Positions 1,505 through 63,138 of a stretch of DNA of 64,000 bases are shown here, one piece after another. How positions within the stretch are numbered: the stretch's first letter is position 1; each line of letters begins with the position of its first letter. Source of the stretch: an uncultured Candidatus Saccharibacteria bacterium (lineage in GTDB: Bacteria > Patescibacteriota > Doudnabacteria > UBA920); NCBI GenBank assembly GCA_964483665.1, contig CAZACP010000004.1, forward strand, positions 7,399-71,398, in the 5' to 3' direction. A program made the translations under genes and the position numbers. Under the pieces are notes generated by a model. That model saw only the letters and a program-made list of their open reading frames with translations. It was not told the origin of the DNA and did no database searches.

Positions 1505-1550
1505 GTCAATCCAAAAAACCGCCCCTCCGCCAGTTGGCGGATCAAGGGAC
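1505..1550. terminator. Bidirectional rho-independent terminator-like hairpin containing CCGCCAGTTGGCGG palindrome
   Basis: The sequence is aaaaaaccgcccctccgccagttggcggatcaagggacggttttt: a stem with an A-run before it and a T-run after it. It is downstream of the rplJ-rplL unit on the minus strand. Confidence 0.5.
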
Positions 1551-17175: not shown

Positions 17176-18153
17176 TTACAGCTTCACTATTGCCCTTAAT
17201 TTAGCGGGCTTTGAGCGAGGATTATTTTTTAATTCGTTTTCAGAAGCAGTTACTATTTTTTTGGTTAATATTTTTCCTTGAGGATTTTTGCCACACACAC
17301 ATTGAGGGAAATCTATTGGGCATACGCAGCCTTTACTTAAGCTATTAAAGTATTGTTTTACTATTCTGTCTTCAAGCGAATGGAAGCTTACTATTACTAG
17401 CCTGCCGCCCGGGTTTAAAAGGTCAAAACTTTTTGGCAAAAACTCTTCTAAGGCTTCCAGCTCATGGTTAACCGCTATTCTTAAGGCTTGAAATATTCTT
17501 CTGGCTGAATCATCGGCGCGATGTTTTACAGGCTTAGGAAGTGAATCATGGATTATTTGATAGAGTTCTGTTGTATAGCGGATTTGGCTCTTAGATCTTG
17601 ATTCTTGGATCTTCCTTGCTATCTGGCGGCTAAACTTTTCCTCACCGTAATCGCTAAATATTTTACTAAGCTCCTGTTCGCTTCTGTTATTTAGTAAAAA
17701 ACTTGCGTCTTCGGGTTTAGTTTGATCAAACCGCATGTCTAGCGGCTCTTTTTTCTGAAAGCTAAATCCCCGCCCAGACTGGTCAAGTTCATATGACGAA
17801 AGTCCCAAATCTGCAACAATGCCTGAAATATTATTAAACTCATGTTCTTTTGTTATTTTGTTTATGTTTTGAAAATTGCCGTGCACCGCTATCACTCCCT
17901 CTCCCTCTGGGAGAGGGCCGGGGTGAGGGTGTTTGATATTTGTCCGCCAGTTTGCGGATTGAAATTTGAAATTCTCAATCGCATCCTTGTCCAAATCTAT
18001 AACCAACAACTTGCCGCCCGGAGATATTTTTTGCAAGATCGTCTTACTATACCCTCCTCCGCCTAGCGTCGCGTCGACAAAATTCTCACCGGGCTTAGGG
18101 TTAAGAAAGTAAATAACTTCCTCAAGTAATACTGGAATATGTTCATAATTCAT
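17176..18153 (-). CDS. rsmH: 16S rRNA (cytosine1402-N4)-methyltransferase RsmH/MraW
   Basis: MNYEHIPVLLEEV...DATLGGGGYS and a C-terminal FHSLEDRIVK. It contains an in-frame repeat-derived insert. Confidence 0.85.
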   Translation of the reverse strand: MNYEHIPVLLEEVIYFLNPKPGENFVDATLGGGGYSKTILQKISPGGKLLVIDLDKDAIENFKFQSANWRTNIKHPHPGPLPEGEGVIAVHGNFQNINKITKEHEFNNISGIVADLGLSSYELDQSGRGFSFQKKEPLDMRFDQTKPEDASFLLNNRSEQELSKIFSDYGEEKFSRQIARKIQESRSKSQIRYTTELYQIIHDSLPKPVKHRADDSARRIFQALRIAVNHELEALEEFLPKSFDLLNPGGRLVIVSFHSLEDRIVKQYFNSLSKGCVCPIDFPQCVCGKNPQGKILTKKIVTASENELKNNPRSKPAKLRAIVKL

Positions 18154-24035: not shown

Positions 24036-24314
24036 TTAAAACCGAACAGCCTTTAGCTCCAATATTAATGCATTGTCAATAATAAAATCCACAATATTTC
24101 CTGTGTCCCCGATTATTACTTCTTTCTTATACTTAATACCATTTTCTGAAAATTTTTTCTCTAGCAACTTACTATATTGTTTCTCCTTAGCATATGGACC
24201 TAATTCTTTATAAACTTCAATCAATAAACCGTTTATTTTATAGCTCAAATCCCCGTACAAAAAATCTACCTTCAGTTTCTTCGTTTCTGTAGTTTTCTGT
24301 AGGTTATTACTCAT
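24036..24314 (-). CDS. GxxExxY family protein (PD-(D/E)XK-like), C-terminally truncated paralogue
   Basis: FLYGDLSYKINGLLIEVYKELGPYAKEKQYSKLLEKKF is about 60% identical to the 39534..39923 protein, but it stops at LKAVRF and lacks the last 35 aa. Confidence 0.65.
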   Translation of the reverse strand: MSNNLQKTTETKKLKVDFLYGDLSYKINGLLIEVYKELGPYAKEKQYSKLLEKKFSENGIKYKKEVIIGDTGNIVDFIIDNALILELKAVRF

Positions 24315-24626: not shown

Positions 24627-24670
24627 TTCCCTCTCCAAGACTTGGAGAGGGTTAGGGAAAGGTTGATGAT
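24627..24670. repeat. Family A element (CCCTCTCCAAGACTTGGAGAGGG TTAGGGAAAGGTTG)
   Basis: Matches the cores at 63043 and 6204. Confidence 0.7.
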
Positions 24671-25534: not shown

Positions 25535-26968
25535 TTACCTTTTAAAACTCTTCCCCGGCCTTATGGAAATATCACCATCGTTATCAACTTCCTTAACTCT
25601 CCCAAAACCTACGCTGTCCCTAAATACTTTCCCTGCCTTTAAAACCGGGGCGTAAGACAAAGTAAATTTGCCGTATTTGGCGTTTACAACATCTATCGCG
25701 CGAGTAAGCGAAGCTTTGGCCGTTTGTTTTTTAAACAAAGACTGCTGAAGAATAAAAGGCTTAAGGCCTGCTACGGTAACGCCTATTAATTTACAATTGG
25801 CGATGATTTTATGTATATCGGTATAATTCTTTATAATATGCCTGGCTTCCCAAAATAAATCCCTTGCGTCAAAAATATCGGTAGACAATTTTGCAGAATG
25901 CCCGTAACTGTTATAATCGCCGTCGCGCACATACGCCACCACAATATTGCCCATTAATTTTTTGCGCCTAAGCCTCTCCCCCACCATTTCGCAAAGCTTG
26001 TATAAAACCGGCTCAAAAAATTCCGGCTTTCTGTATTCCTTAGGCAGAGTATACATATGGCCGATTGATTTTATACTTTCATCAAAATTCACTTTTGCTT
26101 TCCAGCTACCGCTTAACTGTCCCATATGGTGAAGGTGATAGCCGTTAATGCCAAACACTCGCACCAGTTTGCTTAAGGGGTAATCGCGCAGCTCTTTTAA
26201 AGTTTTTATGCCAAGTTCGTTTAACCTTTTTTCCTGCCTTTTGGCTATACCCGGTATGTCGGTAAGTTTAAGACGAGTATAAAGATCTTCTTTGGTTAGA
26301 TTTAAAACCCCATTTGATATTTGAAATTTGATATTTGAAATTAGCACTATTCCATCCGGCTTTTTTAAATCACTCGCAATTTTTGCTAGGAGTTTGTTCT
26401 CCGCAATACCTATGCTGCAAGTTAAATAATCCCCCACTTCTTTTTTCATTCGTTTTTTTATTTCCACAGCTACCCTAACCGCTTCTTGCCAAGGATTGGC
26501 CAATAAATAATCTTTAATTTCTGCCATATAAAAATATGGGTGTTCTATATTTTGAAATTTGGATTTTAAAATTTGTCCGCCAGCTGGCGGATTATTTAAA
26601 AATTTAAAATTTAAAATTGGAAATTTAACATTACAGCTTGCTGTAATGTCCACATACGCTTCATCTATGCTGGCCGGCTCAACAAAATTGCTGTAGTCCC
26701 TTAAAACTTTTAAAAACCGGCGATGATACTCCCTGTAAGCATCGGCCCTTGTATGCACCAAAATAATTTTAGGATACAGCTTTTTAGCTTCCCAGACCGG
26801 CGTGCCGGTCTTTATGCCCCAGCGCTTGGCTTCTATGCTGGCGGCAATAATAATGCCGCCCAAATGTTCGCACACGCCTAAAACCTTGCCGCGGTACTCT
26901 TTATTGTCTTGCTGCTCCACCGAGGCAAAATAGCTGTTCATATCTAAATGCAAAATTACATTTTGCAT
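25535..26968 (-). CDS. dinB: DNA polymerase IV (Y-family)
   Basis: MQNVILHLDMNSYFASVE...SIDEAYVDIT...CSIGIAENKLLAKIAS. It carries two in-frame repeat-derived inserts. Confidence 0.85.
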   Translation of the reverse strand: MQNVILHLDMNSYFASVEQQDNKEYRGKVLGVCEHLGGIIIAASIEAKRWGIKTGTPVWEAKKLYPKIILVHTRADAYREYHRRFLKVLRDYSNFVEPASIDEAYVDITASCNVKFPILNFKFLNNPPAGGQILKSKFQNIEHPYFYMAEIKDYLLANPWQEAVRVAVEIKKRMKKEVGDYLTCSIGIAENKLLAKIASDLKKPDGIVLISNIKFQISNGVLNLTKEDLYTRLKLTDIPGIAKRQEKRLNELGIKTLKELRDYPLSKLVRVFGINGYHLHHMGQLSGSWKAKVNFDESIKSIGHMYTLPKEYRKPEFFEPVLYKLCEMVGERLRRKKLMGNIVVAYVRDGDYNSYGHSAKLSTDIFDARDLFWEARHIIKNYTDIHKIIANCKLIGVTVAGLKPFILQQSLFKKQTAKASLTRAIDVVNAKYGKFTLSYAPVLKAGKVFRDSVGFGRVKEVDNDGDISIRPGKSFKR

Positions 26969-27471: not shown

Positions 27472-27720
27472 TTTTTCCTTCTCCTTGTTGTACGATACAA
27501 AACCCGTCCCAAAGAATAACAAAAAAGTTATTCTCAAGGACGGGTTGATGAAGTTTCATCAGTTTGCCGCGGTACCACCTTGCTTTCCTAAAACTTAGGA
27601 CTCTTTTTACCGGATTTTACGGCTCGGGCAACCGTGCGGGATATTCCCCCGCCAGCGTTTTGGTGTGCGAAACCAAATCTTTAACTGCTTTATACTATTA
27701 TTCCGCCAAAGGCGGATCCG
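27472..27720 (-). promoter_or_regulatory. Putative structured 5' leader with terminator/attenuator hairpin (riboswitch-like arrangement, class unknown)
   Basis: On the minus strand the hairpin is cccgtccttgagaataac-tttttt-gttattctttgggacggg followed by ttttg, 25 nt before the RBS. The GC-rich upstream segment has several short hairpins. Confidence 0.3.
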
Positions 27721-27788
27721 CCTTTGGCGGAATTTTAGCTTAGTTTACCACTTACAAAAATTCTGTCAATAACTTTGAATAACCAAAG

Positions 27789-31502: not shown

Positions 31503-31943
31503 CTAATTTAATTTTGTCATTTCAAGGTCTATTGCTTCATTTACTAGTCTGTCGGCGTCTGAATTTTGGACTCTAGGAACGTGGATGAAATTTACGTTTG
31601 CAAAATTTTTACAAAGTTTTAATACCGTTTCAGCCAGGGGTTTAAGCCCCTGGTCTTTTATTTTATAACGGCCCTGCATTTGCCTGACTATTAACTCACT
31701 ATCCATTCGGATTTCTAGGCTCGCCTTTTCGTTTGAAATTTGAAACTTGTCATTTGAAATTTTAATTGCTTCTTCCAACGCCAAAATCAGAGCCCTATAT
31801 TCCGCCTGGTTATTGGTAGTTTCTCCGATATATTTTTTAAATTCAGCGGTTATTAACCCTTGTTCATTTTTAAAAACCACACCGATCCCCGAAGGGCCTG
31901 GATTCCCCCTAGAGCCGCCATCTGTGTTGATTATTAGTTTCAT
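31503..31943 (-). CDS. rnhA: Ribonuclease HI
   Basis: INTDGGSRGNPGPSGIGVV...TNNQAEYRALILALE...HVPRVQNSDADRLVNEA. It contains an in-frame KISNDKFQISNEK insert. Confidence 0.8.
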   Translation of the reverse strand: MKLIINTDGGSRGNPGPSGIGVVFKNEQGLITAEFKKYIGETTNNQAEYRALILALEEAIKISNDKFQISNEKASLEIRMDSELIVRQMQGRYKIKDQGLKPLAETVLKLCKNFANVNFIHVPRVQNSDADRLVNEAIDLEMTKLN

Positions 31944-32018: not shown

Positions 32019-33746
32019 TTAAGATGATAACTGCCTAATATCTATAATTCTTAACTTTAATTGCTTATTCCCGTTCCATTCATCTTGCAATAATTCACAG
32101 GCTAAATCTAACTCTTGGCCTATTTGTAAACTGCTGTCTTTAGGCCCAAAATTAAAAGCGATGCAGGAAATTTGTCTGTTGCCTAAAGAAATTTTCATTT
32201 GCAAATGCTGTGCTTTTTGTCCCACAGCCCGCTTACTTAATATTTTAGCATTTTTCAGCAAAAATTTTGGTTTCGGGTTGCCAACCCCAAAAGGCTCTAA
32301 GGAAGCAATCAAGTTGTAAGTTGTAAGTTGTAAGTCTTCGGAGGAAAGTTCTGCGTCAATATTTAAAACAGGCCCGTCATCTTCTTCCATATTCTTTTCC
32401 GCAAAATCCAAAACGCTTTGGTAAAATATTTCAAAATTTTCCGTTTGCAAGGTAAGCCCCGCCGCCTGCTTATGCCCGCCATAGCGGATTAAATGCTGGC
32501 CGGAATATTTTAAAGCCTCAACTACATTAAATTCCCCCGCGCTTCTGGCCGACCCGGTCGCTTCAAACTCCCCCTTCTCCAGCACAATTGTGGGTTTATA
32601 AAATTCTTCGGCTAATTTGCCCGCAACTAACCCCACAACGCCTTTATGCCAACTTTCCCCCATTAACACCAAAACCTTCCTGTGAAGTATTCCTTGGGCT
32701 TTTTCTCTCGCTTCGCTCATTATCCGCGCTGTTATTTCCTGCCTTCGCAAATTTATTTCTTCAATATTTTGAGCTTGAATTTTTGCCTTTAAGGGATCGT
32801 TTTCTAACAAAAGTTCCAGGGCAACATTAGCGTGTTCAAGCCTTCCAGCCGCGTTTATCCTTGGTGCAATTACAAAACCTAAGGAATAAGTATCCAGCGG
32901 CTGCTTTGCAGGATCCAGCTTTGCTAAATCCATTAAAGCCCTAAGCCCAACCCACTTTGTTTTAGCTAAAACTTTAAGGCCATACTTAACAAAAATTCTA
33001 TTCTCGCCTATAAGCTTATGACAGTCAGCCACTGTGCCTATAGCCACAAGGTCTAATAGCCACTTTTCCCACCCTTGGGATGATTTCGGATTTCGTCCGC
33101 CAGCTGGCGGATCGGATTTCGGATTTTGCAGCAATGCCTGAGCGAGTTTAAAAGCCACGCCGACCCCAACAATTTGGTCATCCGGATAATTATCGTCTTG
33201 ATTTTTAGGGTTTATAAGCGCTAAAGCGTTTGGTAAATTTCCAATAATTTCATGGTGGTCGGTAATAATTAAGTCTATGTTATTTTCCTTGCACCATTCT
33301 GCGGCATCTACAGAATTTGTGCCGCAGTCCACGGTAATTATTACTTTTGAACCATGTTCTTTAATTTTTTTTAAGGCGTCTAAATTTACCCCGTACCCTT
33401 CCAAAAAACGGTCGGGTATATAACTTTCACAGTCCGCGCCCAAATAATTAAAGGCTTGGCGCAAAACCGCATTAGCGGTTATGGCGTCTGCGTCATAGTC
33501 GCCGTAAATAGTAATTTTTTCTTTATTCTCTATTGCCTGCCATATCCTGTTAACGGCTTTTTCCATATCGCGGAATAAAAACGGGCTATTAAGCCCTGTA
33601 GTATAGTCCGCGTTAATAAATTTTTTTATTTCTTCCGGTTCCTTAAGGCCGCGATCAAAAAGCAATTGCCTTAAAAGGACCGGGTAATCTTTATAAACTT
33701 CTTCCAGTTCTGTCGGAATATTGGGTTTTAATTTCCAAATTTTCAT
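32019..33746 (-). CDS. recJ: Single-stranded-DNA-specific exonuclease RecJ
   Basis: DHH motifs (YGDYDADAITANAVL and IITDHHE) and a DHHA1 domain. It has two in-frame repeat inserts. Confidence 0.85.
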   Translation of the reverse strand: MKIWKLKPNIPTELEEVYKDYPVLLRQLLFDRGLKEPEEIKKFINADYTTGLNSPFLFRDMEKAVNRIWQAIENKEKITIYGDYDADAITANAVLRQAFNYLGADCESYIPDRFLEGYGVNLDALKKIKEHGSKVIITVDCGTNSVDAAEWCKENNIDLIITDHHEIIGNLPNALALINPKNQDDNYPDDQIVGVGVAFKLAQALLQNPKSDPPAGGRNPKSSQGWEKWLLDLVAIGTVADCHKLIGENRIFVKYGLKVLAKTKWVGLRALMDLAKLDPAKQPLDTYSLGFVIAPRINAAGRLEHANVALELLLENDPLKAKIQAQNIEEINLRRQEITARIMSEAREKAQGILHRKVLVLMGESWHKGVVGLVAGKLAEEFYKPTIVLEKGEFEATGSARSAGEFNVVEALKYSGQHLIRYGGHKQAAGLTLQTENFEIFYQSVLDFAEKNMEEDDGPVLNIDAELSSEDLQLTTYNLIASLEPFGVGNPKPKFLLKNAKILSKRAVGQKAQHLQMKISLGNRQISCIAFNFGPKDSSLQIGQELDLACELLQDEWNGNKQLKLRIIDIRQLSS

Positions 33747-33749
33747 TGA

Positions 33750-33830
33750 GTAGTTGGTAGTTGGTAGTTGGTAGTTGGTAGCCCAAATTGCTCCGGCTAC
33801 TTACTACTTTACTACCTACTACTTACTAAA
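33750..33830. repeat. Family D element: (TAGTTGG)4 array - spacer - (CTACTTA)n array
   Basis: Read directly from the sequence. The second copy is at 62515-62590. Confidence 0.65.
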
Positions 33831-39956: not shown

Positions 39957-40976
39957 TTACTTTCCCACTAACACAACTTCCTCCACCAGCCTGTTTGAAT
40001 ACCCAAACTCGTTGTCGTACCAGGCAATAACTTTTACAAAATTACCGTCTATAACCTGGGTTAGCGACAAATCTACTATGCTTGATGCCGGGTTGCCGAC
40101 TATGTCTTGCAAAACCAATTGTTCACGCGAAGCAATGAGTATATTTTTATAATGCGGAAGCTTTGCCGCGTCTTCAAAGGCCTCGTTAACTTCTTCTTTG
40201 GTGGTTTTCTTTTTAAGCAGTAAAGTAAAATCAGAAAGGCTGCCAACAGGGGTCGGTACCCTAAAAGCAATGCCGTCAAATTTGCCTTTTAGCTCTGGTA
40301 TTGCCTGAGTTGCGGAAATGGCCGCGCCGGTTGAAGTGGGAATTATATTTACTGCCGCTGCACGGGCACGACGGAGGTCAGTTGATTTTCCGCCTGGCGG
40401 AGGCCCGTCTACCAAGTTTTGCTCGGCTGTATAACTATGAATAGTAGACATAAACGCCTTTTCCACGCCAAATTTTTTGTGCAGCACATCTAAAACCGGT
40501 GCTATGCAGTTTGTGGTACAAGAAGCATTGCTAATAATATTTTGCTTATGGTACTCTTCCTGGTTAACGCCAAGGACTATGGTGGGGGTTATGCCTTCGT
40601 CTTTAGCCGGCGCGGAAATAATAACTTTTTTTGCTCCGGCTTTTATATGCGCGCTTGCTTTTTCACTGTCTGTAAAACGACCGGTGGATTCTATAACCAC
40701 GTCCACATTCAGCCTGCCCCAAGGCAGAGCTTGCGGCTCTTTTTCCGTAAACACCGGATATTTTTTTCCGTCCGCAATAATATGATTTTGGTCAAAAGAA
40801 ACTTTATGTTTAAACTTACCGTAATTGCTATCATATTGTAATAAATGCGCTAACACTTCTGTGGAAGTTAAATCATTTATACCCACAACCTCTATTTCCG
40901 GTTTTTCTATGGCAATTTTAAAAGCCTGCCTGCCAATCCTCCCAAAACCGTTTATTGCTAATTTAATTTTTTGCAT
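39957..40976 (-). CDS. gap: Glyceraldehyde-3-phosphate dehydrogenase
   Basis: INGFGRIGR and ASCTTNC. Confidence 0.9.
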   Translation of the reverse strand: MQKIKLAINGFGRIGRQAFKIAIEKPEIEVVGINDLTSTEVLAHLLQYDSNYGKFKHKVSFDQNHIIADGKKYPVFTEKEPQALPWGRLNVDVVIESTGRFTDSEKASAHIKAGAKKVIISAPAKDEGITPTIVLGVNQEEYHKQNIISNASCTTNCIAPVLDVLHKKFGVEKAFMSTIHSYTAEQNLVDGPPPGGKSTDLRRARAAAVNIIPTSTGAAISATQAIPELKGKFDGIAFRVPTPVGSLSDFTLLLKKKTTKEEVNEAFEDAAKLPHYKNILIASREQLVLQDIVGNPASSIVDLSLTQVIDGNFVKVIAWYDNEFGYSNRLVEEVVLVGK

Positions 40977-45091: not shown

Positions 45092-45131
45092 TTCCCTCCC
45101 CTCCTAAGGGGAGGGATTAAGGGAGAGGTTG
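45092..45131. repeat. Family A element (CCCTCCCCTCCTAAGGGGAGGG ATTAAGGGAGAGGTTG)
   Basis: Read directly from the sequence. Confidence 0.65.
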
Positions 45132-53237: not shown

Positions 53238-53285
53238 TCATTTTTGTCATTTTTGTCAATTATTTAATTTTTGTCATTGGTTTTA
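53238..53285. repeat. Family G tandem TTTTGTCATT motifs
   Basis: tcatttttgtcatttttgtcaattatttaatttttgtcatt. Confidence 0.5.
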
Positions 53286-54857
53286 TTCAATTATTTCCCC
53301 GCCAAAAATTTTCAGCGCGTCACTTAAAACCGCAACTGGGTTTTGCCCTTCCGTAATTTTGTCAGGCAATTCTCCAACAATGCCCAAATTTTTACCGCTA
53401 ACCTCTGTTATTTCCTGGGTAATAAAATTTAAGTTTTTTTCAATAGTTTTTTTATCAAACTGATATTTTACGCTTATTACAATTTTTCCGTTATTTACGC
53501 CAATTATTTGGGCTGCCTTAAGCATACTACCTAGGGGGCCGTTTTTGTCTTTAATTCTAAGAACGACTTTTGGCCAAAAATCTAAAACTTCTTTCAAACT
53601 AACATTTTGGTCAAGCCGGCTTAAAATTTCGCTTTGCGGTTCTAAATCAGGCTTTATAGACTCTTGATTTTGCACTTTGATAATCGGCTGTTCGGTTACT
53701 TCTGTTTTTTCCCTTTGTGGTGCTGGAATTATATTATTTGGCTTTTTTTTTAAAGCCCCTTCAATCGCGGCAAGCAAAAGGGGTATTTCAGGACTGGGAG
53801 CGCCTTGCAGATCTTTAAACGACTTTAAAAACAGCCGGATTATAAAAATAATCTCGCTAATGCTTAAATTCTGTAAAACCCCCTCATTCTGCCCTGTAAT
53901 TTTTTTAACCATTAAGACTCTTAAGTGTTCTAAGAAATCTTTGTTAAAAGCGTTAAAATCAACTCCGGCTTCCAGCAAACGGTCAAAATATTCCGGAATT
54001 TCATTGGCCTTTCCTTCAGAAATAAGCTCTGTAAGTTCAGCTAACAGTGCTGTGTCCGTGATTCCTAAAATTGTTCTAATGTCGCCCAACGAAGTGCTGT
54101 TCCCCAGAGTTGAAATCTTGTCTAAAATAGAAAGCGCGTCGCGCATTCCGCCGCCCGCGTTTTGGGCGACTAAATCTAAAACTTCTTCCGGGTAGCTTAA
54201 ATTCTCTTTGTTTACAATATTTTTTAAATGCTCTTTAATATCTGCCGCTGAATATGCTTTAAAATCAAACCGCTGGGTGCGGGAAATTATAGTAGCCGGA
54301 ACTTTTTGAATTTCCGTGGTAGCCAGAATAAATATAGCGTGTTTGGGAGGTTCTTCTAAAGTTTTTAAAAGCGCGTTAAAAGCGCCTTTGGAAAGCATAT
54401 GCACTTCGTCTATTATAAATACTTTATATTTGCCTAAGGTTGGAGAAAATTTAACGTGGTCAATAATATCCCTGACATTGTCTACCCCGGTATTGGAAGC
54501 CGCGTCTATTTCTATTAGGTCAATAAAGTTGTTGTTTTCAATTGCCTTGCAAACACTGCACTCCCCGCACGCATCCCCCAAAGCACCAGGCGAAGCCTGT
54601 ACATTATTTTTCTCCCCATCTGGGGGGAGATGTCCGGCCGACAGGGCGGATAGAGAGGGTTGATTATTCAGACAGTTAACGCTTTTTGCGAATATCCTAG
54701 CCACGCTGGTTTTTCCAACTCCTCTGCTGCCAATAAATAAATAAGCATGGGCAAAAGCACCCCCGGCGATTTGGTTTTTAAGGGTTTTAATTATTGCTTT
54801 TTGACCAACAACCTGAGCAAAAGTTTGAGGTCTATATTTTCGGTAAAGTACAGCCAT
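53283..54857 (-). CDS. dnaX: DNA polymerase III subunit gamma/tau
   Basis: MAVLYRKYRPQTF...GSRGVGKTS...DEVHML and a zinc module CGECSVC. A repeat-derived insert sits next to the zinc module. Confidence 0.85.
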   Translation of the reverse strand: MAVLYRKYRPQTFAQVVGQKAIIKTLKNQIAGGAFAHAYLFIGSRGVGKTSVARIFAKSVNCLNNQPSLSALSAGHLPPDGEKNNVQASPGALGDACGECSVCKAIENNNFIDLIEIDAASNTGVDNVRDIIDHVKFSPTLGKYKVFIIDEVHMLSKGAFNALLKTLEEPPKHAIFILATTEIQKVPATIISRTQRFDFKAYSAADIKEHLKNIVNKENLSYPEEVLDLVAQNAGGGMRDALSILDKISTLGNSTSLGDIRTILGITDTALLAELTELISEGKANEIPEYFDRLLEAGVDFNAFNKDFLEHLRVLMVKKITGQNEGVLQNLSISEIIFIIRLFLKSFKDLQGAPSPEIPLLLAAIEGALKKKPNNIIPAPQREKTEVTEQPIIKVQNQESIKPDLEPQSEILSRLDQNVSLKEVLDFWPKVVLRIKDKNGPLGSMLKAAQIIGVNNGKIVISVKYQFDKKTIEKNLNFITQEITEVSGKNLGIVGELPDKITEGQNPVAVLSDALKIFGGEIIE

Positions 54858-62510: not shown

Positions 62511-62514
62511 TATG

Positions 62515-62590
62515 TAGTTGGTAGTTGGTAGTTGATAGTTGGTAGCCGAACATTGCCTGACTACTTACTACTTACTACTTCACTAATCGC
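62515..62590. repeat. Family D element (TAGTTGG array - spacer - CTACTTA array)
   Basis: It overlaps the last 8 codons of rplO. Confidence 0.65.
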
Positions 62591-63042: not shown

Positions 63043-63138
63043 TCCCTCTCCAAGACTTGGAGAGGGTTAGGGAGAGGTTGAAAATTATTAACCTCTCTGT
63101 CACCTTTCGGGTGACATCTCCCCAAGCTTTCGGGAGAA
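63043..63138. repeat. Family A composite element in the rpsE-rplO spacer (where rpmD/L30 would normally be)
   Basis: ccctctccaagacttggagaggg ttag ggagaggttg..aacctctct gtcacctttcgggtgac atctcccc.. Confidence 0.7.

What the first reader, a model, noticed from the sequence alone, without database searches (positions are those of the whole stretch)
32316..33135. RecJ with two in-frame repeat inserts: (AAGTTGTA)x3 tandem and a CCGCCAGCTGGCGG palindrome
At 32316-32342 three perfect AAGTTGTA units encode DLQLTTYNLIA. At 33095-33135 GGATTTCG-TCCGCCAGCTGGCGGA-TCGGATTTCGG encodes SDPPAGGRNPKSS inside the DHH domain. The same perfect 14-bp palindrome gives PPAGG in DinB.
Basis: partly seen in the sequence, partly recalled or inferred. 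Interest (0 to 1): 0.65.

Follow-up and report, generated by a model that had tools for sequence, protein, structure and literature searches.

The report
Tiny mobile palindrome inside RecJ loop
A DNA-repair gene of an uncultured candidate-phyla bacterium carries a 16-base perfect palindrome that was inserted, in frame, into a run of 7-base repeats coding for a floppy surface loop. The same palindrome turns up in the same kinds of places in more than a hundred genomes from unrelated bacterial phyla.

Summary
The ORF at 32019..33746 (-) is a RecJ of Candidatus Doudnabacteria.

**The tandem repeat.**
- It is a 7-mer, not an 8-mer: AAGTTGT x3.6 at 32311-32335.
- It is not an insert. It aligns without gaps to all orthologues and to solved RecJ structures, and it lies in a confident helix.
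- The same array is kept at DNA level in orthologues of about 58-77% protein identity. Other orthologues have different heptamers, or none, at that spot.

**The palindrome.**
- It is real: TCCGCCAGCTGGCGGA, 33096-33111.
- It interrupts a (TCGGATT)n array and is flanked by a 3-base direct repeat (TCG).
- Removing 19 bases restores a perfect array, as found uninterrupted in other orthologues.
- It adds four codons in the only low-confidence loop of the model.
- It is absent from a strain about 97% identical in DNA.

**Other copies.**
- Copies lie in DinB, RsmH and a terminator in the window.
- The 18-mer containing it occurs in at least 120 loci from many phyla, in heptamer arrays, at hairpin tips and in RNase P RNA, tmRNA and a SAM riboswitch.

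**Best reading.** It is an ultra-small mobile hairpin, like the REP, SDR and RPE repeats, that lands in slippage-prone heptamer arrays. The enzyme that moves it is unknown.

The parts
32019..33746 (-). recJ ORF, 575 aa (DHH, DHHA1 and RecJ_OB domains): the host gene
   Evidence: Pfam 3.2e-24, 3.9e-12 and 3.3e-29, all above cut-off. PDB RecJ 8y30 at 1.8e-92; orthologues named RecJ, Candidatus Doudnabacteria.
32311..32335 (-). Heptamer tandem array: (AAGTTGT)3.6 on the + strand, (ACAACTT)n on the coding strand. It encodes LQLTTYNL (residues 472-479). It is part of a conserved helix, not an insert.
   Evidence: period 7, perfect. (no gap in orthologues or PDB). (helix 474-481, pLDDT about 93). 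(same array in L126 and L127).
32324..32363 (-). Local hot spot of divergence between near-identical strains, overlapping the 5' (coding-sense) part of the array
   Evidence: 10 substitutions in about 45 nt against L001/L125, with about 2% divergence in the rest of this half of the gene.
33096..33111 (.). 16-bp perfect palindrome TCCGCCAGCTGGCGGA (two abutting 8-bp inverted arms). It encodes (D)PPAGG, residues 212-217. This is the inserted element.
   Evidence: RNA hairpin -13 kcal/mol. Absent in L001. No stop codon in any frame (read from the sequence).
33093..33095 (.). Left copy of the 3-bp direct repeat TCG (putative target-site duplication)
   Evidence: removing the palindrome plus 3 nt restores the heptamer phase 7/7.
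33112..33114 (.). Right copy of the 3-bp direct repeat TCG
33082..33127 (-). Whole loop cassette: a (TCGGATT)n heptamer array, (AATCCGA)n on the coding strand, split by the palindrome. It encodes NPKS-DPPAGG-RNPKSS in the loop at residues 207-225.
   Evidence: An uninterrupted (AATCCGA)4 array lies at the same place in L004, and with one mismatch in L127. pLDDT<50 at residues 214-223.
33051..33131 (-). Patch that is completely different in the about 97%-identical strain L001, which has (GAAAAGA)3.5 = EKRKEKREKF here
26576..26591 (.). Second exact copy of the palindrome, inside DinB (ORF 25535..26968 -), between AT-rich heptamer arrays. It lies within an extra stretch of about 45 aa.
   Evidence: Shared with L001; absent in L126.
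17943..17958 (.). Degenerate copy TCCGCCAGTTTGCGGA inside RsmH (ORF 17176..18153 -), flanked by TTG/TTG and a (TTGAAAT) array, and next to a second GC-rich hairpin at 17897-17917
1526..1541 (.). Copy with a one-base difference (TCCGCCAGTTGGCGGA) at the tip of the intrinsic-terminator hairpin downstream of rplL
   Evidence: Fold -33.9 kcal/mol, z -6.3, followed by a U-run.
33750..33828 (-). Intergenic heptamer arrays (GTAGTTG)4.6 and (CTACTTA)4.4 just upstream of recJ, which pair into a long hairpin. They belong to the same genome-wide heptamer phenomenon.
   Evidence: Fold -34 kcal/mol, z -5.3.

Best explanation
The gene is an ordinary, intact RecJ exonuclease of a Candidatus Doudnabacteria (Patescibacteria/CPR) genome. 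That genome, like its relatives, is rich in 7-bp tandem repeats.

SHOWN
(a) The 7-mer array at 32311-32335 codes for part of a conserved helix at the start of the OB-fold region. It is an old feature of this RecJ clade, not an insertion.
(b) The loop between helix 194-206 and helix 226-240 of the DHH domain is coded in most orthologues by about four heptamer units. Different lineages carry different units.
(c) In this strain the array is interrupted by a 16-bp perfect palindrome flanked by a 3-bp direct repeat. Deleting 19 bp restores a perfect array.
(d) The same palindrome lies in heptamer arrays, at the tips of larger hairpins and in structured-RNA genes in many phyla.

INFERRED
- The palindrome is a very small non-autonomous mobile element, in effect two 8-bp inverted ends.
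- It inserts with a 3-bp target duplication, preferentially into DNA that can loop out as a single strand: slipped heptamer arrays and hairpin loops.
- A 19-bp insertion shifts the reading frame by +1. Loss of one 7-bp unit by slippage restores it (+19 -7 = +12, which is the observed net four codons). This would explain why heptamer arrays in tolerant protein loops are the places where such insertions survive.
- The insert has no stop codon in any frame and sits in a disordered loop, so it is probably neutral for RecJ.
- The enzyme that moves it is not identified.
For: Host gene.

Segment 2 is not an insert.
- No gap in A1 or against 8y30/5f54.
- Helix with high pLDDT.
- Identical (ACAACTT)3.6 DNA in L126 (77% aa identity) and one mismatch in L127 (about 58-62% aa identity). 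(CAATTGT)n in L003 and L004, (CAATTAT)n in L128.

Loop coded by heptamers.
- 50 of 105 orthologues have a 22-residue loop with 7-residue periodic peptides (NPKSEIRNPK class, EKxKxKSxK class).
- DNA confirms (AATCCGA)4 in L004 and (GAAAAGA)3.5 in L001.

Insertion.
- Absent from L001, which is about 97% identical over 8 kb.
- Gap against PDB.
- pLDDT<50 only at residues 214-223.

Target duplication.
- In 9 of 11 informative sites with heptamers on both flanks, the phase is restored only when 16+3 nt are removed. The duplicated triplets differ between sites (TCG, TTG, TGA, CAG, TCA, TGG).
- 4 of 13 additional copies, not selected for their flanks, have a perfect 3-nt repeat, against 0.2 expected.
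- 12 of 103 in the flank-biased set, against about 1.6 expected.

Dispersal.
- 4 copies in the window against 0.1 expected, plus further TCCGCC..GGCGGA hairpins.
103 of 129 copies are in <50% GC context, where chance predicts only a handful.
- Copies lie inside RNase P RNA (three loci), tmRNA and a SAM riboswitch.
- They occur in isolate genomes (Mucilaginibacter, Niastella, Sphingobacterium) and in a complete Berkelbacteria genome.

Other hairpins in the same RecJ array: P0036/L157 and P0063/L156.

[quoted passage not shown] SDR5 inserts precisely into HIP1 (PMC4390886). Heptamers are the most abundant long SSR class, with polymerase slippage proposed as the cause (Mrazek 2007, as quoted in PMC4679880).
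Against: - No transposase or other shared gene was found next to the copies, and nothing is known to move a 16-bp element.
- Most copies outside heptamer arrays have no 3-bp direct repeat. Either the duplication decays, or there is more than one way these hairpins arise.
- No clean filled/empty pair from truly close relatives exists for the RecJ site. L001 carries a different heptamer array there, and the recJ genes of the three strains are a recombination mosaic. The allele may therefore have been imported by recombination rather than created in this lineage.
- P0016 has the palindrome at exactly the same offset in the loop. This could mean one old insertion kept or exchanged, rather than two events.
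- The frame-restoring -7 step is arithmetic inference only.
- Only 6 hits in IMG/VR, so no obvious vehicle for spread across phyla.
Confidence: 0.6

Rival explanations
1. Regulatory or architectural site. The palindrome would be the binding site of a conserved DNA-binding protein (in the manner of parS, NBS or an operator), or an RNA hairpin with a role in transcript processing or termination. Its presence in RecJ and DinB would then reflect co-regulation of repair genes.
For: - 16-bp perfect palindrome, conserved to the base across phyla.
- Stable RNA hairpin of -13 kcal/mol.
- One copy forms the apex of a real terminator.
- Two of the copies are in DNA-repair genes.
Against: - Also found in RsmH, in a GAPDH-like ORF, and in RNase P RNA, tmRNA and a riboswitch.
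- Absent from the recJ of an about 97%-identical strain and from the DinB of L126.
- Family members keep the stem but vary the centre (AGCT, AGTT, AAA, TTT, T). This fits a hairpin, not a dimeric dsDNA site.
- The sites cost extra residues rather than being fitted into existing codons.
Confidence: 0.08
2. Selected peptide. PPAGG would be a Pro/Gly-rich linker and LQLTTYNL a helix, both favoured at protein level, with the DNA repeats as by-products.
For: - The LQLTTYNL helix residues (DL..TYNL) are conserved in many orthologues that have no DNA repeat.
- Pro/Gly peptides suit loops.
Against: - The same DNA palindrome is read in other frames (SASWR, RQLA) in other proteins, and it lies in non-coding DNA and RNA genes.
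- PPAGG occurs in only 2 of 120 listed RecJ orthologues.
- Perfect 7-bp periodicity, including synonymous positions, across orthologues of about 58-62% identity is not explained by protein selection alone.
Confidence: 0.07
3. Phase-variation switch. The 7-bp array, whose unit is not a multiple of 3, would let RecJ switch on and off by slippage (a contingency or mutator locus).
For: - Gain or loss of one unit would shift the frame.
- Heptamer arrays are clearly unstable in this lineage: the DinB arrays differ by +21 and +6 nt and in unit sequence between about 97%-identical strains.
Against: - Only 3.6 copies.
- All eight orthologous DNA alleles examined have the same length and are in frame.
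- The array codes for a conserved helix.
- Differences between strains here are substitutions, not unit-number changes.
Confidence: 0.04
4. Chance or artefact. These would be low-complexity sequence in an AT-rich genome, or an assembly artefact at palindromes.
For: Short repeats are common in AT-rich genomes, and MAG assemblies can mis-join at inverted repeats.
Against: - Shuffles give 0.1 matches against 4 observed.
- Period-7 arrays only, none expected.
- The identical allele is assembled independently from another sample (L125). The DinB copy is also in L001.
- Present in isolate and complete genomes.
- The ORFs stay open.
Confidence: 0.02

Closest known systems
Small dispersed repeats (SDR4-6) of Nostocaceae (Elhai et al. 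2008, Genome Res 18:1484)
   Same: - Very small, hairpin-forming, dispersed repeats that behave as mobile inserts.
- SDR5 inserts precisely into another short repeat, HIP1 (PMC4390886; PMC5861425).
- From my memory of that paper (not held here), SDRs are also found inside tandem heptameric repeats and nested in other elements. That matches the context seen here.
   Different: - SDRs are 21-27 nt and are reported only in Nostocaceae. quotes that none were found in other HIP1-rich cyanobacteria.
- This element is 16 bp (19 with the duplication) and is a perfect palindrome.
- It lies in CPR, Bacteroidota and other phyla, and sits in frame in housekeeping ORFs.
- Sequence relatedness to the SDRs could not be checked.
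REP / REPIN elements mobilised by RAYT transposases
   Same: - Short GC-rich palindromes, many copies, often at gene ends or terminators.
- Some lie inside genes, notably replication and repair genes (PMC3733652; PMC3116915).
   Different: - No GTAG or CGTC tag next to the hairpin.
- Perfect rather than imperfect palindrome.
- 3-bp direct duplication in arrays; REPs make none.
- No RAYT seen near any copy.
- Three of the four copies found by the pattern search in the window are intragenic.
Rickettsia palindromic elements (RPE)
   Same: Palindromic selfish DNA inserted in frame into conserved protein-coding genes at tolerant surface positions (established knowledge; mentioned in PMC3733652).
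   Different: RPEs are about 100-150 bp and confined to Rickettsia. This element is 16-19 bp and crosses phyla.
Heptanucleotide long simple-sequence repeats (cyanobacterial STRR; Mrazek 2007 LSSR; TAACTGA repeats of Beggiatoaceae, Cyanobacteria and Bacteroidetes)
   Same: - Period-7 tandem arrays over-represented in certain genomes.
- Mostly intergenic, and unstable.
- Polymerase slippage proposed as the cause (PMC4679880; PMC4692102).
   Different: - Here the arrays also sit inside conserved housekeeping ORFs (RecJ, DinB, RsmH, RNase H), in in-frame lengths, coding for loops and even a helix.
- Their units turn over between near-identical strains.
MITEs
   Same: Terminal inverted repeats plus target-site duplication; non-autonomous.
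   Different: - MITEs are typically 50-500 bp and have a recognisable parent IS.
- This element would be nothing but two 8-bp ends, and no parent was found.

Membership tests
RecJ (DHH-family 5'-3' ssDNA exonuclease): the host gene | DHH, DHHA1 and RecJ_OB domains above Pfam gathering scores; DHH motif present | tested here: met
   (86, 47 and 101.5 bits against cut-offs of 28.1, 25.9 and 27). D163-H164-H165 invariant in A1. PDB RecJ 8y30 at E 1.8e-92.
REP/REPIN (RAYT-mobilised) | Conserved GTAG or CGTC tetranucleotide at one end of the palindrome | tested here: not met
   Flanks are TTG, TCG or CCT on the left and ATC or ATT on the right. No GTAG or CGTC is adjacent in any window copy.
REP/REPIN (RAYT-mobilised) | RAYT (Y1 HUH transposase) gene in the genome, typically flanked by the repeats | tested here: inconclusive
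   No family shared by the 120 loci looks like a transposase. Only 64 kb of this genome is visible, and the window's ORFs were not all scanned.
REP/REPIN (RAYT-mobilised) | Predominantly extragenic location | tested here: not met
   Three of the four copies found by the pattern search in the window are inside ORFs. In the survey, 23 of 103 low-GC copies lie in open frames.
SDR (Elhai 2008) | 21-27 nt dispersed hairpin repeat | tested here: not met
   The element is 16 bp, or 19 with the duplicated triplet. The hairpin itself is confirmed.
SDR (Elhai 2008) | Found inserted in other short repeats (HIP1; heptamer arrays, from memory) and nested in other elements | tested here: met
   Inside heptamer arrays. 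Nested in other palindromic repeats in L016, L017, L069 and L085.
SDR (Elhai 2008) | Sequence similarity to SDR1-8 consensus sequences | not testable with these tools
   The paper is not held. The 14-mer occurs in no held paper.
MITE | Terminal inverted repeats and a target-site duplication of fixed length | tested here: inconclusive
   A 3-bp duplication is supported at 9 of 11 informative array sites, but most non-array copies lack it.
MITE | Size of about 50-500 bp and a parent IS with matching ends | tested here: not met
   16 bp. No parent element was found near the copies.
Rickettsia palindromic element (RPE) | In-frame insertion in conserved ORFs | tested here: met
   RecJ +4 codons. 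DinB, RsmH and other proteins carry ..NPPAGGQ...
Rickettsia palindromic element (RPE) | About 100-150 bp element of Rickettsia | tested here: not met
   16-19 bp; the host is Candidatus Doudnabacteria.
Phase-variable simple-sequence contingency locus | Unit-number variation between closely related strains that switches the reading frame | tested here: not met
   Five close alleles (window, P0001, P0002, P0003, P0007) and five distant DNA alleles all have the same length at the 7-mer array.
Heptanucleotide long SSR (LSSR/STRR-type) | Tandem period-7 arrays in excess over chance | tested here: met
   Four perfect arrays of 3 or more copies, all of period 7, against 0 expected. 23 period-7 rows in TRF.

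The most novel reading that the evidence does not exclude
TCCGCCAGCTGGCGGA would be a pan-bacterial, ultra-small (16-bp) mobile hairpin, smaller than any described transposable unit. It would insert with a 3-bp duplication into looped-out single strands: slipped heptamer arrays and hairpin loops of terminators, RNase P RNA, tmRNA, riboswitches and tRNA-like genes. It would be moved by an unidentified, horizontally shared enzyme.

In CPR bacteria, heptamer arrays in protein loops would act as landing pads. Array slippage would repair the frame, making these loops engines of rapid surface variation in otherwise highly conserved housekeeping proteins.
Probability: 0.3. Interest if true: 0.8.

Novelty: new variant of a known kind. 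Interest (0 to 1): 0.58.

Why it matters
- It would extend the known lower size limit of mobile DNA. It would also show that the 'very small mobile repeats', so far described only in Nostocaceae, have counterparts in CPR bacteria, Bacteroidota and other phyla.
- It gives a simple arithmetic reason (+19 then -7) why such inserts survive in reading frames.
- It explains a class of odd Pro/Gly-rich or 7-residue-periodic insertions (NPPAGGQ, KFQISN, NPKSEIR) that clutter loops of CPR housekeeping proteins and can confuse alignment, annotation and structure prediction.
- Culturable carriers (Mucilaginibacter flavidus, Niastella, Sphingobacterium) make the mobility question testable.
- For RecJ itself the finding is benign: the enzyme looks intact.

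Tried and rejected
- **Population unit-number variation.** The one metagenome scan (search for related loci with RecJ) returned no close strain; the best was 65% identity. Population evidence therefore rests on five alleles from the protein search and three DNA loci (L001, L125, window).
- **Associated transposase.** All-against-all BLAST of 2261 ORFs from 120 loci gave only housekeeping families (ABC ATPases, glycosyltransferases, PBP, epimerase), plus small GIY-YIG and PDDEXK_3 proteins in 4-5 loci each. None is convincingly enriched.
- **Phage vehicle.** Only 6 hits in IMG/VR.
- **Literature.** The 14-mer occurs in no held paper. There are no papers on heptamer repeats in CPR. The Elhai 2008 paper is not held, so it is cited second-hand and from memory.
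- **De novo origin by template switching from the array.** Rejected, because the palindrome arms share only TCCG with the AATCCGA unit and nothing with the GAACCAA unit of L003.
- **Ectopic gene conversion between arrays.** Rejected, because the RecJ, DinB and RsmH flanks have different heptamers.
- **DGR-type mutagenesis for the substitution hot spot.** Considered, but there is no template repeat and no clear adenine-specific pattern.
- **tRNA variable-arm origin.** ARAGORN does not call the palindrome-bearing tRNA-like copies.
Full report
**What is at the coordinates.** The ORF at 32019..33746 on the minus strand encodes a 575-residue protein. It has DHH (77-238), DHHA1 and RecJ_OB domains, all far above Pfam cut-offs. 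It matches solved RecJ structures (8y30 at E 1.8e-92, 5f54, 2zxo). Its closest database relatives are RecJ of Candidatus Doudnabacteria / Patescibacteria. The window is about 40% G+C with nearly all genes on one strand.

**Check of the observation.**
- The tandem repeat is AAGTTGT x 3.57 at 32311-32335, with period 7. It is not an 8-mer and not at 32316-32342.
- It encodes DLQLTTYNLIA on the coding strand, as stated.
- The palindrome is exact. In full it is 16 bp, TCCGCCAGCTGGCGGA, at 33096-33111.
- It lies between GATTTCGGATTTCG and TCGGATTTCGGATTT, which is a (TCGGATT)n heptamer array split in two.
- The DinB copy is exact at 26577-26590.
- Within two mismatches the 14-mer occurs four times, against 0.10 expected.
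- Perfect tandem arrays of three or more copies exist in the window only at period 7: four arrays, none expected.
- TRF lists 23 period-7 arrays. Twelve are inside ORFs and eleven are in, or overlap, the 19% of the window that is intergenic.

**Segment 2, the 7-mer array, is not an insert.**
- In an alignment of 33 orthologues there is no gap at this place. There is none against 8y30 or 5f54 either.
- In an AlphaFold model (mean pLDDT 90.2), LQLTTYNL (472-479) lies in helix 474-481 with pLDDT about 93.
- The peptide, or close variants of it, is found in many orthologues.
- At DNA level the same (ACAACTT)3.6 array is identical in L126 (77% protein identity) and has one mismatch in L127 (about 58-62% identity).
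- Other orthologues carry (CAATTGT)n at the same place, giving QLSIVNCQLL. The array is identical in L003 and L004, including the same mismatch. L128 carries (CAATTAT)n. Others have no DNA repeat.
- So a heptamer array is an old property of this position in the clade.
- The two closest strains (L001, L125) differ from the window by 10 substitutions in about 45 nt here, against about 2% divergence in the rest of that half of the gene. There is no length change.

**Segment 1, the palindrome, is an insert in a heptamer-coded loop.**
- The loop between GVGVAFK... and ...EKWLLDL is 22 residues in 50 of 105 orthologues. It often shows 7-residue periodic peptides, such as NPKSEIRNPK and EKCKVKSEK.
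- DNA shows that these are heptamer arrays: a perfect (AATCCGA)4 in L004, (GAAAAGA)3.5 in L001, and a decayed (GNAAAGT)4 in L126.
- The window and P0001 have 26 residues: AATCCGA AATCCGA | TCCGCCAGCTGGCGGA | CGA AATCCGA AATCA.
- Removing the palindrome plus one CGA (19 nt) gives a perfect (AATCCGA)3.7 array (read from the sequence; phase test).
- The insert is a gap against 8y30. It falls in the only segment of the model with pLDDT<50, residues 214-223, within the non-helical stretch 207-225.
- L001 is about 97% identical to the window over 8.2 kb, yet it has a completely different 80-nt patch here and no palindrome.
- The three strains' recJ genes are a recombination mosaic. The window equals L125 from 33746 to 32919, with 0 differences. 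L125 nearly equals L001 from 32918 to 32019.
- The allele may therefore have arrived by recombination.
- P0016/L003 has the palindrome at the same offset, but in a (GAACCAA)-type array with CAA|pal|CAA.

**The same thing elsewhere in the window.**
- DinB (25535..26968) has about 45 extra residues after DEAYVDIT and about 10 more at residues 212-224 relative to solved DinB structures. Both stretches are built from AT-rich heptamers, and the first contains the palindrome.
- DinB is about 95% identical in protein to that of L126, except in these two loops. There, three genomes have three different heptamer arrays.
- RsmH has about 15 extra residues holding a degenerate copy flanked by TTG/TTG, plus a second GC-rich hairpin.
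- A copy with one changed base forms the apex of the rplL terminator: -33.9 kcal/mol, z -6.3, followed by a U-run.
- Further TCCGCC..GGCGGA hairpins with other centres lie at 27702-27731 and inside a GAPDH-like ORF at 40389-40401.

**The palindrome outside this lineage.**
- The 18-mer GTCCGCCAGCTGGCGGAT was found in at least 120 loci of GTDB species representatives.
- Uniform base composition predicts about 17 hits in the whole library, mostly in GC-rich genomes (my calculation). Yet 103 of 129 copies are in <50% G+C context.
- The hosts include many classes of Patescibacteria and many Bacteroidota, among them the isolates Mucilaginibacter flavidus, Niastella and Sphingobacterium. They also include Bdellovibrionales, Cloacimonadota, Elusimicrobia, Fermentibacteria and an archaeon.
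- The contexts repeat:
  - inside heptamer (once octamer) arrays;
  - at the tip of larger hairpins or terminators;
  - nested in other palindromic repeats;
  - inside RNase P RNA (L021, L023, L096), tmRNA (L010) and a SAM riboswitch (L044);
  - in tRNA-fMet-like pseudo-copies next to real tRNA-Met genes in Bacteroidota.
- About two dozen copies lie in open frames, mostly as ..NPPAGGQ...
- Hits in GC-rich genomes look like chance coding matches.

**Evidence on how it gets there.**
- Fifteen sites have period-7 signal on both flanks, and eleven give an unambiguous answer. In nine of these the heptamer phase is restored only if 3 nt are removed together with the 16-mer.
- The duplicated triplets differ between sites (TCG, TTG, TGA, CAG, TCA, TGG). 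By chance each of the seven offsets is equally likely.
- Thirteen further copies were not selected for their flanks. Four of them have a perfect 3-nt direct repeat, against about 0.2 expected.
- Most copies outside arrays do not have one.
- No gene is shared by the neighbourhoods, and phage contigs hold only six copies.
- The same RecJ array hosts other hairpins in other lineages. L157 has a 21-nt CCTGTCTCGTTGGCAGACAGG hairpin, present twice. L156 has another insert at exactly the NPKS|..|EIRN position. Longer palindromic repeats occur in about half of the orthologues.

**Interpretation.**
- *Shown:* the gene, the two repeats, their structural positions, the presence/absence pattern, the 19-nt phase rule and the cross-phylum distribution.
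- *Inferred:* the palindrome is a minimal non-autonomous mobile hairpin that lands in DNA able to loop out.
- *Inferred:* a +19 frame shift is cured by loss of one 7-nt unit, giving the observed +12.
- *Inferred:* the insert is neutral for RecJ.
- *Unknown:* the mobilising enzyme.
- Heptamer arrays as such are known. They are the most abundant long SSR class, with polymerase slippage proposed as the cause (Mrazek 2007, as quoted in PMC4679880; PMC4692102).
- Palindromic repeats inside genes, notably replication and repair genes, are also known for REPs (PMC3733652) and for Rickettsia RPEs.
- The nearest analogue is the SDR family of Nostocaceae (details from memory).

**Novelty.** The kinds are known. 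New are:
- this particular 16-bp element;
- its spread across phyla, including CPR;
- its occurrence in structured-RNA genes;
- its systematic pairing with in-frame heptamer arrays in housekeeping proteins;
- the 3-bp duplication.

I rate it a new variant of a known kind. Interest is moderate to fairly high for the genome-wide phenomenon and low for RecJ itself.

Noticed in passing
window 33750-33828 and 62514-62585: Pairs of intergenic heptamer arrays, (GTAGTTG)4.6 followed by (CTACTTA)n, fold into a long imperfect hairpin (-34 kcal/mol, z -5.3). They lie between gpmI and recJ, and again near 62.5 kb. In L001 one arm is made of different heptamers.
   Followed up: partly
window 40389-40401 (ORF 39957..40976 -): TCCGCCTGGCGGA, with the same stem and a 1-nt centre, lies inside a GAPDH-like ORF and gives ..VDGPPPGGKST... 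This looks like a few extra residues compared with canonical GAPDH (comparison from memory only).
   Followed up: partly
window 27702-27731: Two back-to-back hairpins, TCCGCCAAAGGCGGA and TCCGCCTTTGGCGGA, together form a 30-nt palindrome in an intergenic region.
   Followed up: no
window 17897-17917, 24629-24651, 63044-63066, 45093-45116, 778-799, 54611-54630: A second family of GC-rich hairpins with polypyrimidine/polypurine stems (CCCTCTCC..GGAGAGGG). Two are identical 23-mers in intergenic DNA. One lies in frame in RsmH (HPHPGPLPEGEG) and one in ORF 53283..54857. Similar PLPKGEGG peptides occur in the RecJ loops of P0031, P0040 and P0118.
   Followed up: partly
window 24036..24314 (-) against L001 10471-10860: A PDDEXK_3 (GxxExxY) gene is intact in the sister strain (129 aa). 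In the window it is cut to 92 aa by a stop codon. It is flanked by CTACAGAA / TTCTGTAG motifs.
   Followed up: partly
window 26288-26372 against L001 8308-8419 and L126: The second DinB loop is coded by different heptamer arrays in three genomes: (AAATATC/AAATTTC) in the window, (AAATTCG)4+(AAATCTT)4 in L001, and (ACGAGTT)3 in L126. Length differences between the window and L001 are +21 and +6 nt, while the rest of DinB is about 95% identical in protein.
   Followed up: yes
window 31732-31762 (RNase H ORF 31503..31943 -): A (TTTGAAA)4.4 array codes for ISNDKFQISNEK. The same KFQISN peptide, from the same heptamer, recurs in DinB (NIKFQISNG) and RsmH (ENFKFQSA).
   Followed up: partly
L070 73-90 and 574-591; L106 (3 copies); L122 1868-1993; L101; L080: In Bacteroidota the 18-mer replaces the 3' half of the anticodon arm and the variable loop in tandem tRNA-fMet-like copies. 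These lie next to a real tRNA-Met gene, and ARAGORN does not call them as tRNAs.
   Followed up: partly
L021 2823-2840, L023 4532-4549 and 4646-4661, L096, L010 5358-5375, L044 6887-6904: The palindrome lies inside Rfam-confirmed RNase P RNA, tmRNA and a SAM riboswitch, apparently as the cap of variable helices.
   Followed up: partly
L157 (P0036) RecJ loop; L156 (P0063) RecJ loop: Other small hairpins occupy the same heptamer array in other Doudnabacteria. L157 has two tandem copies of [CAAAATC + CCTGTCTCGTTGGCAGACAGG]. L156 has a different insert at exactly the NPKS|EIRN junction.
   Followed up: yes
window recJ against L125 and L001: recJ is a recombination mosaic among three co-occurring strains. 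The 5' 830 nt of the window are identical to L125, and the 3' 900 nt of L125 nearly equal L001.
   Followed up: yes
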